DNA of 64,000 bases from Styela clava. Its lineage: Eukaryota. The stretch spans positions 6,944,001 through 7,008,000 of the forward strand of contig NC_135253.1 in the NCBI RefSeq assembly GCF_964204865.1, written 5' to 3'. Under the pieces are notes generated by a model. That model made no database searches. It was not told where the DNA came from and saw only the letters and a program-made list of their open reading frames with translations. Every line of letters starts with the position of its first letter. Positions within the stretch are counted from its first letter, which is position 1. The position numbers and the translations under genes were made by a program. Below are positions 1,282 to 63,675 of the stretch, one piece after another.

Positions 1282-2194
1282 ATGAATCTGTATCTTACTT
1301 CCTGTCTTGTTTTGATGACATTGGCAAAGTGTTGTTTCATGCTGGAGCAGGTACAGGTGACAATGGAAGAAGGTAACGTTTGTATTTGTTATCTGTATTA
1401 CCTCAATTATTTTTAATACTTTGTTATACTTGCCGTTTTTTAATATAGCCTGGGAATTACATGGAAATTTATTGAACGCCCAAATATTAAATATATAAGT
1501 TTGGAAAACTGTTATGTATGTTATGTTATGCCTATGTTGATGGTGCAATGTTGAAAATCTAAATATATATTTTATTTAATTTCAAAGTTATTGTAGAAGA
1601 ATTTTTTGGACCAATTGTTAGGAAATAAGAATATATACGGAGATTGAATAATTAGTTAGACAACTGGCGAAGCATAAATACATATTGCTTGTTGGCATTG
1701 GCATTTATGTTCAAGTTTGATTTATTTTCCAAATCGCAACTTGATAAATCTTTCAATACTTTTAACGATTGTGATTTGTTCAGAAGTGGATATCTGCTCC
1801 CTTCCCTATGTTAAAGGGCCATGCAAAGCTAATTTTGAGAGATGGTACTACGATGGAGAAACATGCACTACATTTCAATACGGAGGATGTAAAGGGAACA
1901 ATAATAATTTTCTGTCGGAACACGAATGCTCTGTGCGATGTCCGAGTGCGTATTTTCATAAAAACTTTAATAGAGGAACTAAGATGTAAAACTTCATATT
2001 TGATTTAATTTTGGATATTTTTAGTTGACTGCCTTGCACCAGCCAAAAAGGGCCAATGCAAAGCAAAACTTGAGCGATTTTACTACGATGCCTACATGAG
2101 CGAATGTATCAAGTTTGAATACGGTGGATGCAACGGAAATACGAATAACTTTCGTTCAATCGAGCAGTGCATGGATGCATGTCAAAAGAAATAA
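1282..2194 (+). CDS. KuA: secreted protein with two Kunitz/BPTI domains (P1 Lys, Lys)
   Basis: Exons 1282-1372 (signal peptide MNLYLTSCLVLMTLAKC...), 1784-1945 (CSLPYVKGPCKANFERWYY...YGGCKGNNNNF...CSVRC) and 2025-2194 (CLAPAKKGQCKAKLERFYY...YGGCNGNTNNF...CMDACQKK*). GT-AG introns are both phase 1. Each domain has six canonical Cys. Confidence 0.9.
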
Positions 2195-2926
2195 TCGATA
2201 TATTCGTACTCTTGAACTTTCTAGTGAGTATAGCGCAATTTGTTCAGATAACTCAGCACATGGTAGTGAGGCATGGATATATTTATTGAATTGTATACAA
2301 TAATGTCAAATACTTTTACATATAGGGCATTTTATTCCCAATATATAAAGAAAGATTGGAAATAAAGACAAATACCTATATATGGGATTTTAAAGTCGAA
2401 TTATTCAAAACGTGTGGTGCTTCAACATGACTACAAATTCGCAAAAAATGCCAATATTTTAAAATATTTAAACTTATATATTTTATAAATGTAAACACAT
2501 TTCAGAGTTTCTAAATTATGTCACCTAAACTAAAAACGATGTCAATTTAATTCTTGAATATACTAGAAGTTGACACAATTTTTTTCAATGAACGGAAAGC
2601 AAAATTTTCAATTGCTTCCTTTCATTTAATATTTCATTTACATTAGCTCTCATTGAGCTGAATATTTATATTGTGTTAATGAACGTTACTTATTGACCAA
2701 CGATTTATGCTTACACATTAGGGCGTTATAACTTCGGAACGCAGCATATGAGACACATGTTTTACAACTATCAATGAAACGAACTTATTATAAATACAAA
2801 ATATTAGCACCCGACAGAAACCTTGCATATAGTATGAATAAATAACAAATTCAGTAAATCCTCCCATCTCAAGTGTAGGAAGACTTTACCTGATGGTCCA
2901 AACAACTCATTAATATCAATATATAC

Positions 2927-3212
2927 AACGAGAATATCGGTCAGAGACCGAAAACTTATCGATCGAAAGTTAGGGGATCCCCAAAACAGCGCTCCTACTC
3001 CATAGTGACACCTTGTGTCCCATCACTAATTAATTAATAACTCGCTAATTATACGACATATTTCGCCCGAAATCAATAGGTTTCTGGTCCGAGATATGAT
3101 GATTGCACATGCAAAATCTGGAGCAGATTCAATCTCGCTTCCGTGAGATACCGCGAGCATCTAACAGACAAATACCTATCAACATACTTACCGGTTAAAA
3201 TCGATAGGTAAT
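2927..3212. mobile_element. Helentron-associated (HINE/DINE-1-like) non-autonomous element, copy 1
   Basis: Homologous over ~290 bp to 33004-33305. Has subterminal ACTTATCGAT, a terminal hairpin (ACTTACCG...TCGATAGGT) and a short ACAG-type repeat. Confidence 0.6.
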
Positions 3213-4287
3213 GAGGCGCCAATAGGTTAACAAACTCTAACTAACTAGTACTTGATATACATGATATTACACGTTACACATGATATTATTTCCATGAACG
3301 TTTTGTGTTTTTAGATTTCTTTATTCGCTGAAGATGGATGAAGATAAATTACAGATACGACGTTTCTCTCTCTCTCTCTTCAATAAAACAATCAATTTTG
3401 AAATTTATTCATCACCCCTCAACTTGTAACACATTTTTGCCTTTAAAGTGATATAGTTTCCAATACATTTGCTGGATATGGACAACAATTGTGAGCTCAA
3501 AAATGAAATTTACATCATAAGTCAACCTAAAATTACGCTTCCACTTTGTTCACTGTATTTTTATTCCATAATTTACATGCTAGACAGTCGACTGTTATTG
3601 ACTTATTGACTCTGTAATCGTTCAGATTGTAATGAAAACCTCAATATTGTACTTTTATTTGTGTGACAAATATACATCGGTCATGAAAACGGCATTGATT
3701 GATTTATTGGTGATCAACATGCAAGTCCAGTTTAAAATTTATTTCATGTTGCTATTTGTGTGAACAGCATAGAGTGACTGGGAAATATCAATCGATGTTA
3801 GAATGTTCAAATATTTTATGAAAACAATAACATTTATATATTTTAGAAAAAAAAGACAGCAATAGATAATAATGTTTTCCCACGTAATTTTGCTAAATCC
3901 GATTCTGGAATATGATCTATTCTTCTAGTCCATTGCACGACATACCGTATATTTATCTCCGAATAAACGGTTTAAATAAGAGTGGATTGCATATTCTAAA
4001 CAATAAAAGTATGAAGCAAATGAAGGAATTAGAATATATTTGGGAACGATTCATAAAATAATTTATTATTTCAGATATGATATGCTTAATTTTACCCTGC
4101 ACAAATTGAGATTATCGTAAATCCATAATTATGAATTGAAGTTGGCTTTGACAATGCGTTTAAGGATAGGCATAACATTGCCTTTATCTGCAAATACAAA
4201 ATAACAATCTTGTAGATCAATATTTTTCATAGTAGGCTACTGTGTAGTAATTGCTCCCAACGGAAGATTGATGCATGTTCAAAGCTA

Positions 4288-61436: not shown

Positions 61437-62229
61437 CAGCGGTTCCCAAACTATGAATCGCGACCCACTGGTGGGTCGCAAAAGAAATCTTAGTGGGTCG
61501 GGAAAAGATGTAGAAAGCTTTGATTAATTATACGAATCGGTGGCGACTCGAATACGTAAATCTTGAAAAAAAAATTAAACTGAATTTGAATTCTAATCTT
61601 TCAAAGTTTCCTTTTTACGATCTTCTCAAAGAAACAAAAATTTGCTACACCAAGAATGATCATGTGACTTTTTTACGCATAGCAGTTTTGTACACTGTAC
61701 AGCACTTCTTACCGTGTTTTCCCGAAATTTAGACAGGATTTAGATTCATATTCTCTTGCAGAATAACACTATGGTTTTTTTGGAAGAGGTCTTTTGAATT
61801 CATCTATCAAGAATAAAATTACATTGTAGAAAATCACGAGATTTTTTAATAAACATTATATAAAAACCGACATCCATTGTTTTTATTTGTATTTCCTATA
61901 CAAAAATCAAGTGACAAATATCATAATTGTGATTGTGACATCACACAATCTTGAATAGTGGTGTGATCTTCAACTTATCTCTGGTCATTGAAACTGTCCT
62001 CTCCCACACATTTTAAATATATTTTAAGGGTAGGGTTTAATTGAAATCATTTTTAAAATTCAAATTAGGTCTTATTTTCAGGTCAGGTCTTATTTTCGAG
62101 GAAACACGGTAGTTTTACGATGATCAGCCATTGCTGTATTCTGTGTTATGTCATAAAAAGTTAAATGGGTTGCCATAAGCTGTGGTGATAAATAGTGGGT
62201 CGCAACTCTAAAAAGTTTGGGAACCACTG
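61437..62229. mobile_element. hAT MITE (same family as 28070-28735) with nested Tc2-like element at 61712-62109
   Basis: TIRs CAGCGGTTCCCAAACT / AGTTTGGGAACCACTG, TSD ATCTCAAG / ATCTAAAG. The nested TA-CCGTGTTTTCCCGAAA...GAAACACGG-TA sits at the same internal position as in the other copy. Confidence 0.85.
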
Positions 62230-62807
62230 ATCTAAAGTCAAAGCATGGTTTTTGATAAAACTAAAGGCTGGCGAAAATTCCAGGGCATGCAAAATTACTC
62301 ATGATAAACATTTTTTGACTTCGAAACGAAAGCACGTCTATAATAACGATAAAATGAAAACAAGTAGAACAAGTGGGACATGTTTGGCAATTGGGACACG
62401 TAAGACAGGCGGGACACGACATTTTTGAAACACTCGCCTTCGGTCTAAATTTGAAAACACATGTATTTTCTAAATATCTTTCCAGTCCATACACGTAACT
62501 TCTGGCATACTTCTGGAGCCCCAAATATTTTCTATAGAAGTTACTCTTCAACTCTATCCAACCGATGTTTTTACTGCTCTTTCAGAAAAATTTTCATGCA
62601 TTTTAAGTACCTGTTACAAGCTCCAACCCATTATTCAAAGCAAGACTAAAAAAACTTTTTCTGTTTGTGTGAAATATATTTTTATTATTACTGGGTATTG
62701 TAAAACATTGTGTGAAATACTAAGCAATTCCAAATGATGTATTTTATACAAATAGTTCACTTCTTGAGTAGGTGTTTTTTCGTAATGACCCATCGTAATT
62801 GCAGTAA

Positions 62808-63675
62808 TCAGCATCTTTCTGAAAATGATAAATTGAAAAAATATAAAGTAATCTTTATTTTATTAGCACTTCAGATAGTATGAATACATTTCATGTTTTT
62901 TTTTTTTTTTATATATTCCAAAACAAACAAATATTCAGTATATATGACTGTTAAACGAAAGCCTCAACACCAGACGATTATTTAAGTATATTGGAGTAAA
63001 ATACTCGTTCAATCCTATTCAAACAGAAGAAACTTACTGCAGGCTTTTCTACATTTTCTTCTATTACTGAATCGATTATCATTTCCCTGACAGCCACCGT
63101 AGATGAATTTCTTACATCTGCCTGAAGTGCTGTCGAAATAATAACTGGGAATGTAGGCTCTGCATGGTCCGGATTCAAAAGGTTGATGGCAAACTGCAAA
63201 TTAAAGTGACTGATAAGAAATAGGAAATAATTTATACTCCAATAAGCGTGCTTTAGAAATGAACAATAAGGAGCATTTCGAATTTGTAACAAAAAGTGCT
63301 AAGTTTTGAAAACAATTTGCAAAAATACCAAGATCCAACCAAATATTTTCATAGTGATGTAGTGCTAATAAATGTAAACCACAAAATCACTTATTCAATG
63401 TTGTAAGTATTTAAACGTTTTTATCAACTCTGATTTATTTAGAATGCAGAAATATTTGCCATTAAGGTTAGGAATCGCACATGAACGATAGATTCATTTA
63501 GACAAAAAAAGAAACAATGAAGCGGGATTATTTACTTAACTTTATTGTGTTATGTATTCGCCACATAGTGAGAATGTCAATACTTACTGGAGCAATCATT
63601 CGCTTTCGAGGGCTCGATCGAACTTGATAGTAGCAAAATTACAACAGAAATTGCAGTACACCAATGGACATCCAT
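62808..63675 (-). CDS. KuH: small cationic secreted single-Kunitz protein (P1 Arg)
   Basis: Exons 63675-63588 (MDVHWCTAISVVILLLSSSIEPSKANDCS), 63193-63038 (ICHQPFESGPCRAYIPSYYF...YGGCQGNDNRFSNRRKCRKAC) and 62818-62808 (KRC*). Introns are phase 1. Confidence 0.87.

What the first reader, a model, noticed from the sequence alone, without database searches (positions are those of the whole stretch)
1282..63675. Diversified Kunitz gene cluster largely hidden from the ORF track: a modular protease-inhibitor or toxin-like arsenal
Seen: eight signal-peptide Kunitz genes in 64 kb, seven of them within 36 kb and six consecutively on the minus strand. All coding introns are phase 1, so exons are interchangeable. 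P1 residues are K,K (KuA), N (KuB), D (KuC), E (KuD), D,R (KuE) and R (KuF, G, H), and the genes carry different N- or C-terminal accessory peptides. Established: P1 largely sets Kunitz specificity, and Kunitz expansions occur in defence secretions and venoms. Inference: this is a rapidly diversifying defence or immune effector locus that combines specificity changes with appended modules.
Basis: partly seen in the sequence, partly recalled or inferred. Interest (0 to 1): 0.72.

Follow-up and report, generated by a model that had tools for sequence, protein, structure and literature searches.

The report
Sea squirt Kunitz inhibitor gene cluster
Eight neighbouring sea-squirt genes encode small Kunitz proteins that likely block protein-cutting enzymes outside cells; they appear to be mostly old duplicates of a familiar family rather than a fast-evolving toxin arsenal, though two carry a short cysteine-rich add-on that matched nothing in the libraries searched.

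Summary
In detail: eight three-exon genes with ten Kunitz domains, P1 residues as listed, all 16 modelled coding introns phase 1. They are the middle of a 190-kb cluster holding 32 of the genome's 66 Kunitz matches. Named records identify the animal as the ascidian Styela clava. Phase-1 acceptors (21 of 21 callable) and acidic P1 (9 of 27) are as common at the genome's other Kunitz loci. Synonymous sites are saturated in 37 of 45 domain pairs and above 1.3 in the rest; the closest pair (C/D) has dN/dS about 0.12. No measurable pair exceeds 1; one younger pair (H and a neighbour outside the window) has 0.73 with a P1 switch. Accessory peptides are gene-specific, not swapped modules. Best reading: a birth-and-death cluster of secreted protease inhibitors; tissue and targets untested; a toxin role unsupported. 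Odd details: paired extra cysteines in seven genes, and a 22-residue four-cysteine module, predicted helical, in the two acidic-P1 genes C and D.

The parts
1282..2194 (+). KuA: exons 1282-1372, 1784-1945, 2025-2194; 140 aa, two Kunitz domains, P1 Lys and Lys
   Evidence: identical to RefSeq XP_039249097.2 (P0050)
27754..29702 (+). KuB: exons 27754-27832, 28951-29031, 29515-29702; 115 aa; 27-aa four-cysteine accessory exon, Kunitz domain with P1 Asn, two further cysteines
   Evidence: model; RNA joint 29702>30165 (GT..AG, intron directly behind the stop) in runs X1 and X9; coding introns not among the 15 joints shown
28951..29031 (+). KuB accessory exon (Trp-Trp then C-x6-C-x6-C-x2-C)
   Evidence: modelled; no Pfam family; matches only itself in the genome
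30757..31869 (-). KuC: exons 31773-31869, 31244-31309, 30757-30920; 108 aa; P1 Asp
   Evidence: RefSeq XP_039249330.1 differs at 6 residues, none in the reactive loop; run X1 contigs cover the last exon
31244..31309 (-). 66-nt phase 1-1 exon of KuC: hydrophobic C-x5-C-x8-C-x3-C module
   Evidence: present in RefSeq protein; predicted two helices at low confidence
35070..36223 (-). KuD: exons 36118-36223, 35587-35652, 35070-35233; 111 aa; P1 Glu
   Evidence: identical to RefSeq XP_039249329.1 (P0010); Kunitz fold rmsd 0.5-1.0 A to TFPI, APPI and BPTI structures
35587..35652 (-). 66-nt phase 1-1 exon of KuD: same four-cysteine module
   Evidence: in RefSeq protein; helices 35-46 and 49-56 at pLDDT about 62; no Pfam, PDB-sequence or Atlas-feature match; only C and D in the genome
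39640..41240 (-). KuE: exons 41129-41240, 40464-40622, 39640-39803; 144 aa; Tyr/Trp-rich N-terminal stretch, two Kunitz domains, P1 Asp and Arg, four extra cysteines; 3' UTR intron 39140-39619
   Evidence: RNA joints 40622>41129, 39802>40463 (cut +1) and 39139>39620 in run X1
50499..51561 (-). KuF: exons 51369-51561, 50980-51135, 50499-50536; 128 aa; Asn/Tyr-rich N-terminal extension, P1 Arg, short tail ending in two Trp
   Evidence: model only; Pfam match
55892..57065 (-). KuG: exons 56963-57065, 56365-56517, 55892-55917; 93 aa; Arg-rich N-terminus, P1 Arg, short Trp-rich tail; the second intron splits the codon of Cys VI
   Evidence: model only; Pfam match
62808..63675 (-). KuH: exons 63588-63675, 63038-63193, 62808-62818; 84 aa; P1 Arg, basic, one extra cysteine on each side of the domain
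   Evidence: model only; exon-intron layout conserved in the paralogue at G000:C4:7010950-7011914

Best explanation
The window holds eight spliced genes for small Kunitz-domain proteins, the middle of a 190-kb tandem cluster in the sea squirt Styela clava, which are predicted to be secreted and likely inhibit extracellular serine proteases by plugging the enzyme's active site with their P1 loop. Shown: the genes, their exon layout, the Kunitz fold, transcripts for some, and the divergence figures. Inferred: the six Lys/Arg domains (A1, A2, E2, F, G, H) would inhibit trypsin-like enzymes; the Asp, Glu and Asn domains (C, D, E1, B) would bind trypsin poorly and serve other enzymes or conditions; the extra cysteines, which always come in even numbers, would form added disulfides that clamp the ends; the gene-specific aromatic, basic or cysteine-rich end peptides would set where each protein sticks. 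The cluster likely grew by tandem duplication and loss: old survivors under purifying selection in the window, young copies and decayed copies in the flanks.
For: Six canonical cysteines and the Gly-x-Cys and Gly/Cys-Cys loops intact in 10 of 10 domains. KuD model overlays protease-inhibitor Kunitz structures at rmsd about 0.5-1.0 A. A and D equal RefSeq proteins, C differs at 6 residues outside the loop. GT-AG joints for B and E in run X1. 32 of 66 genome matches in C4:6.854-7.044 Mb. dS saturated in 37 of 45 window pairs, 1.35-3.3 in the other 8; C/D whole gene dN 0.22, dS 1.86, Fisher p 6e-13. Seven young flank pairs have dS 0.03-0.15 and dN no higher than dS; one flank copy carries a stop. 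Mature cysteine counts 12, 12, 12, 16, 8, 8, 8 for B to H. P1 rules and the poor fit of acidic P1: passages of PMC9312475 and PMC3721222.
Against: No inhibition, secretion, disulfide map or tissue was measured. Four of ten domains lack a basic P1, and P1 alone does not fix specificity (PMC9312475 passage); human single-domain Kunitz proteins with Gln or Tyr at P1 had no target found (PMC3209443 passage). Saturated dS shows age but gives no dN/dS, so past bursts of positive selection are not excluded. H and its outside neighbour show dN/dS 0.73 with a P1 and charge change. F, G, H rest on my models alone. No orthologue from another tunicate was seen, so age relative to speciation is unknown.
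Confidence: 0.6

Rival explanations
1. The cluster is an immune arms-race locus whose reactive loops diversify fast under pathogen or parasite proteases.
For: Half of the genome's Kunitz matches in one cluster; recent segmental triplication in the left flank; H versus neighbour: P1 Arg to Thr, dN/dS 0.73, loop dN equal to dS; one young flank pair set has dN close to dS (0.119 vs 0.126); a TFPI-2-like Kunitz EST was in a Botryllus rejection library (PMC2527998 passages).
Against: No pair with dN/dS above 1; the H figure does not differ from neutrality (Fisher p 0.34); C/D loop dN 0.12 against dS 2.6; allelic differences in C (6) and A (1) avoid the loop or are few; window domains are not clustered on the tree (9 changes, shuffled mean 9.4; tree poorly resolved).
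Confidence: 0.17
2. Several members, above all acidic-P1 C and D, are not protease inhibitors but matrix, mucus or membrane-binding proteins that use the Kunitz fold as a scaffold and the hydrophobic add-on as the binding part.
For: Acidic P1 fits the S1 pocket of common serine proteases worst (PMC9312475 passage); the 22-residue module is conserved between C and D despite saturated dS (dN 0.28); aromatic residues are 13-24% of the mature chains.
Against: Both binding loops keep the canonical shape and small P1' residue; Glu or Asp at P1 occurs in 9 of 27 other domains of this genome and 150 of 1,222 domains in fetched proteins (set biased towards KuD-like hits).
Confidence: 0.16
3. The proteins are defensive toxins acting on ion channels or receptors of predators or foulers.
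For: Automatic RefSeq name 'PI-actitoxin-like' for C and D; nearest Atlas clusters include snake-type Kunitz proteins at scores 0.89-0.90; mambaquaretin-1 is seventh of 76 PDB matches for KuB; H, B and E2 domains are basic.
Against: These likenesses are to the fold, shared by all Kunitz proteins; best matches are protease inhibitors. Channel block usually needs basic residues (PMC3721222 passage) while C and D domains carry net -4 and -6. Ascidians are filter feeders with no venom apparatus (recalled).
Confidence: 0.05

Closest known systems
MEROPS I2 / Pfam PF00014 Kunitz-BPTI inhibitors (BPTI, APPI, TFPI domains, ShPI-1)
   Same: Six-cysteine domain, fold (rmsd 0.5-1.0 A), canonical loops, Lys/Arg at P1 in six domains.
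   Different: Extra cysteine pairs in seven of eight genes; gene-specific end peptides; a 22-residue four-cysteine exon in C and D.
Human chromosome 20q13 SPINT3/4/5-WFDC locus (PMC3209443, passages seen)
   Same: Clustered small genes of signal exon, phase-1 Kunitz exon and 3' exon; non-basic P1 residues; targets not known.
   Different: No WFDC genes seen here; ten domains in 64 kb and 32 in the cluster; no homology beyond the domain is claimed.
Four-disulfide Kunitz proteins BmKTT-2 (scorpion) and AvCI (spider) (PMC3721222, passage seen)
   Same: Kunitz domain with an added cysteine pair.
   Different: Positions of the added cysteines were not compared; here several patterns occur (one each side of the domain in B, F, G, H; Cys-x-Cys before Cys III in C, D, E2, seen in 35 of 1,222 fetched domains and 0 of 27 other domains of this genome).
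Sea anemone and snake venom Kunitz peptides (kalicludines, dendrotoxins, mambaquaretin)
   Same: Fold, small size, signal peptide, multigene variety.
   Different: No venom organ (recalled), no sign of dN/dS above 1, acidic surfaces in C and D; no activity shown.

Membership tests
Kunitz/BPTI domain family (PF00014) | Profile match above the curated cut-off | tested here: met
   10 of 10 window domains over 21 bits (54.9-74.1)
Kunitz/BPTI domain family (PF00014) | Six cysteines in canonical spacing | tested here: met
   for G the sixth follows with or without the modelled splice
Kunitz/BPTI domain family (PF00014) | BPTI fold | tested here: met
   KuD model, domain pLDDT above 90, matches TFPI/APPI/BPTI; only KuD was searched
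Canonical serine protease inhibitors (MEROPS I2) | Intact P1 loop with Cys II-Cys IV pair and small P1' residue | tested here: met
   Ala or Gly at P1' in 10 of 10
Canonical serine protease inhibitors (MEROPS I2) | Measured protease inhibition | not testable with these tools
   needs recombinant protein
Canonical serine protease inhibitors (MEROPS I2) | Secretion (signal peptide, no anchor) | tested here: inconclusive
   hydrophobic N-terminus in 8 of 8 by hydropathy only; weakest in A (2.2)
Kunitz-type channel toxins | Basic residue clusters or Lys-hydrophobic dyad at dendrotoxin positions | tested here: inconclusive
   net charge only: negative in C, D, E1, neutral in A1, G, positive in A2, B, E2, F, H; dyad positions not aligned
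Kunitz-type channel toxins | Expression in a venom or defence-delivery tissue and channel activity | not testable with these tools
   run labels are coded; no assay
Arms-race gene families under positive selection | dN/dS above 1 in the binding loop | tested here: not met
   0 of 9 measurable pairs above 1 (C/D, H/neighbour, seven flank pairs); pairwise counts on short genes, low power; saturated pairs give no value
Exon-shuffled modular proteins (class 1-1) | Modules flanked by phase-1 introns | tested here: met
   16 of 16 modelled introns; equally so outside the cluster
Exon-shuffled modular proteins (class 1-1) | The same accessory module reused in unrelated genes | tested here: not met
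   C/D module only in C and D; B exon 2 and E exon 1 single; F, G, H extensions not searched; short queries, low sensitivity

The most novel reading that the evidence does not exclude
KuC and KuD are a new two-part design: a disulfide-stapled, very hydrophobic helical hairpin of 22 residues, on its own symmetric exon, replaces the first Kunitz domain of a KuE-like ancestor, is tied by an extra disulfide to an acidic-P1 Kunitz domain, and anchors it to tunic, mucus or membranes or aims it at a Glu/Asp-specific protease or a non-protease target; the Trp/Tyr-rich tags of B, E, F, G do the same job by other means.
Probability: 0.15. Interest if true: 0.55.

Novelty: new member of a known kind. Interest (0 to 1): 0.27.

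Why it matters
As it stands, this is a well-built example of a common thing: a tandem family of small Kunitz proteins, partly annotated already. Its value is practical: a natural panel of P1 variants (Lys, Arg, Asn, Asp, Glu here; Thr, Tyr, Phe, Gly, Leu, Ser in the flanks) with added cysteine pairs in the sister group of vertebrates, where my searches found no paper on it. If the C/D module proves to be a folded anchoring or targeting unit, it would be a new miniature domain and a clue to how ascidians place protease control in tunic or mucus. It also flags a probable annotation error: the current RefSeq record joins D and C into one protein.

Tried and rejected
Expression across runs: run X1 covers the Kunitz exons of B to E, X9 only B at low depth, X10 and X11 none; these are contigs, X1 was found with this very stretch, and a part without cover proves nothing, so I do not use this as evidence of tissue restriction. 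No listed holder was on record as RNA. No reads were laid on A, F, G, H. Orthologues: the search with KuD found 3 proteins among 5 candidates, only itself with the module; the profile search of 1.84 billion representatives was swamped by multi-Kunitz proteins, and my attempt to weight it to the N-terminal half failed (all 111 positions kept), so among the 150 rows shown only KuD matched full length and rows below were not seen; the alignment search showed 120 of 561 hits, one from this species (KuA). None of this shows that the module is absent from other tunicates. Six multi-domain hits with matches reaching into the module region were read and have a different, non-hydrophobic cysteine pattern or none. 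The tree of 64 domains (51 columns) was too weak to test a single origin (9 of 61 branches well supported). A model of a C-D pair gave no verdict, so whether the module oligomerises is open. The single-sequence fold of KuC was poor (pLDDT 56). Atlas structure rows for the module were short helix-pair matches under the naming bar. Mambaquaretin likeness of KuB: rejected as fold-level. Earlier findings of this scan: none. Literature searches without a paper on this cluster.
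Full report
What is there. A six-frame motif scan found ten Kunitz domains in the window; Pfam PF00014 on the own genome confirms the same ten, all over the curated cut-off, and places the window at G000:C4:6944001-7008000 in a 377-Mb assembly. Reading the DNA I built eight three-exon genes, A and B on plus, C to H on minus, each beginning with a hydrophobic stretch. 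All 16 coding introns are GT-AG and phase 1.

How far the models are checked. A search with the last exon of D returned a 111-aa Styela clava protein identical to my model, including its 66-nt middle exon. Its cluster holds a 108-aa protein that differs from model C at 6 residues, none in the reactive loop, and a newer 221-aa record that joins D and C. Model A is identical to XP_039249097.2. Contigs of run X1 show joints at both coding introns of E and at 3' UTR introns of E and B; the B joint is also in X9 (15 of 45 joints shown; the tool marks these runs as RNA only by guess, but the joints are GT-AG introns). Two X1 differences in the last exon of C give, by my hand count, the same residue changes as the RefSeq allele. 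Coding introns of B and all of F, G, H rest on my reading; H gains support from a paralogue with the same layout just outside the window. The genes are thus ordinary short-exon animal genes, missed by an ORF track but at least three of eight already annotated.

Context. The window is the middle of a larger cluster: 32 of the 66 genome matches lie in C4:6.854-7.044 Mb (the genome count is a lower bound). The left flank holds a roughly threefold segmental repeat at 91-95% identity, with one copy carrying a stop. Between A and B lie two whole and one broken methyltransferase genes and a multi-exon gene with EGF-like exons.

Is phase 1 special? No. Of 27 domains at other loci that scored 40 bits or more, 21 had a phase-1 acceptor, none had only another phase, 6 gave no call (13 of 66 weaker domains were dropped; the script also missed C's known acceptor). 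Symmetric class 1-1 modules are the textbook substrate of exon shuffling and APP gained its Kunitz domain that way (PMC3927616, passages); the human SPINT3/4/5 genes have the same signal exon, phase-1 Kunitz exon design (PMC3209443, passages). Interchangeable in principle is not interchanged in fact: the C/D exon is found only in C and D, B exon 2 and E exon 1 only match themselves. Most end peptides are extensions of the signal exon or short last exons.

Is the P1 mix special? Only mildly. Acidic P1 occurs in 3 of 10 window domains and 9 of 27 elsewhere in the genome, and in 150 of 1,222 domains among fetched proteins (a set pulled partly with Glu-P1 queries). Acidic P1 Kunitz proteins are known from beetles, and bind common serine proteases worst (PMC9312475, passages).

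Is it rapidly diversifying? The eight genes look old. Domain identities are 29-76%; synonymous sites are saturated in 37 of 45 pairs and at 1.35-3.3 in the other 8. The closest pair, C/D, has dN 0.22 and dS 1.86 over 108 codons (Fisher p 6e-13), and dN 0.12 in the loop. Seven young flank pairs have dS 0.03-0.15 and dN at or below dS, with one Tyr-to-Phe change at P1 (the stop-bearing copy left out). Against my reading: H and its neighbour at C4:7.011 Mb have dS 0.37, intron distances 0.28 and 0.35, dN 0.27, a P1 change from Arg to Thr and loss of basic residues. That is dN/dS 0.73, not distinguishable from neutral (p 0.34): relaxed constraint or a change of target. These are pairwise counts on short genes; saturation gives no ratio; ascidian sequences evolve fast (recalled), so 'old' may still mean within the family. 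The tree of 64 domains was too weak to decide origin; window domains were not clustered (9 changes, shuffled mean 9.4).

What is odd. Seven genes carry extra cysteines in even numbers: mature counts 12, 12, 12, 16, 8, 8, 8 for B to H against 6 per domain (cleavage sites set by eye). B, F, G, H have one before and one after the domain; C, D and E2 have a Cys-x-Cys before Cys III, seen in 35 of 1,222 fetched domains and 0 of 27 elsewhere in the genome, matched by a lone cysteine at the end of exon 1. Added disulfides are inferred, not shown; four-disulfide Kunitz proteins are known from a scorpion and a spider (PMC3721222, passages). C and D carry a 22-residue hydrophobic exon with four cysteines where E has its first Kunitz exon; exon 1 ends alike in all three, which suggests that the module replaced or derives from that domain (inference). 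It is predicted as two helices at pLDDT about 55-62, is conserved between C and D despite saturated dS, and has no match in Pfam, PDB sequences or Atlas features. My searches could not show whether other tunicates have it.

Mechanism. Most likely these are secreted standard-mechanism inhibitors: the KuD domain overlays BPTI-type inhibitors at 0.5-1.0 A, and all ten loops keep Cys II, Cys IV and a small P1' residue. The six Lys/Arg domains would take trypsin-like enzymes; the others would take other enzymes or none. Where they act (blood, tunic, mucus, gut, gonad) is unknown; a Kunitz EST in a Botryllus rejection library (PMC2527998, passages) makes a blood-cell role plausible but says nothing about these genes. 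The toxin reading rests on automatic names and fold likeness only.

In print. Searches for Kunitz with ascidian, Styela, tunicate/tunic/hemocyte, Ciona/Halocynthia/Phallusia, for Styela clava with protease inhibitor or actitoxin, and for Kunitz clusters (listings and abstract starts only) showed no paper on this cluster; PMC9395347 names Kunitz only in a reference. The library lacks most subscription journals, and no supplements were read.

Verdict. Observation confirmed; interpretation partly supported. A new member of a known kind with one small unexplained module. Interest 0.27.

Noticed in passing
window 7243-8127, 13172-14065 and about 16234-17022 (all minus): Three tandem copies of an intronless Methyltransf_11 gene inside the cluster: two intact (92% identical proteins), the third in four frame pieces.
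   Followed up: partly
window about 18500-26200 (plus): Multi-exon gene with at least three EGF-like exons (21665-21766, 21872-21964, 25630-25719); one passes the EGF_Teneurin cut-off. Not modelled.
   Followed up: partly
window 30757-36223; RefSeq XP_039249330.2: The current RefSeq record joins KuD and KuC into one 221-aa protein with a second signal peptide inside; the earlier version kept them apart. I could not reproduce the join with canonical splice sites at its two ends: probably an annotation error or read-through.
   Followed up: partly
window 29703-30757: KuB (plus) and KuC (minus) converge; a spliced KuB contig reaches 30600 and KuC's stop is at 30757, so their 3' ends may overlap. 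KuB has an intron directly behind its stop codon, KuE about 20 bases behind.
   Followed up: no
G000:C4:6853800-6898400 (L002-L007): Roughly threefold segmental repeat, each unit with Kunitz exons on plus facing a two-domain gene on minus whose first domain lacks the Cys II-Cys IV pair; one plus copy has an in-frame stop.
   Followed up: partly
G000:C4:7028601-7028756 (L014), minus: Divergent Kunitz exon (P1 Ser) with Cys-Lys-Cys and a run of three Trp in place of the second binding loop; it appears to be the last exon of a larger gene.
   Followed up: no
window 59500-60170 and 63730-64000; G000:C4:7013000-7018700: The DNA upstream of KuH recurs at least four more times nearby without a Kunitz exon, perhaps remains of lost duplicates.
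   Followed up: no
window 28060-28740, 33660-34390, 61430-62240: Interspersed elements with inverted ends, covered at high depth by many divergent contigs in all four runs laid on the first two; likely MITE-type repeats.
   Followed up: no
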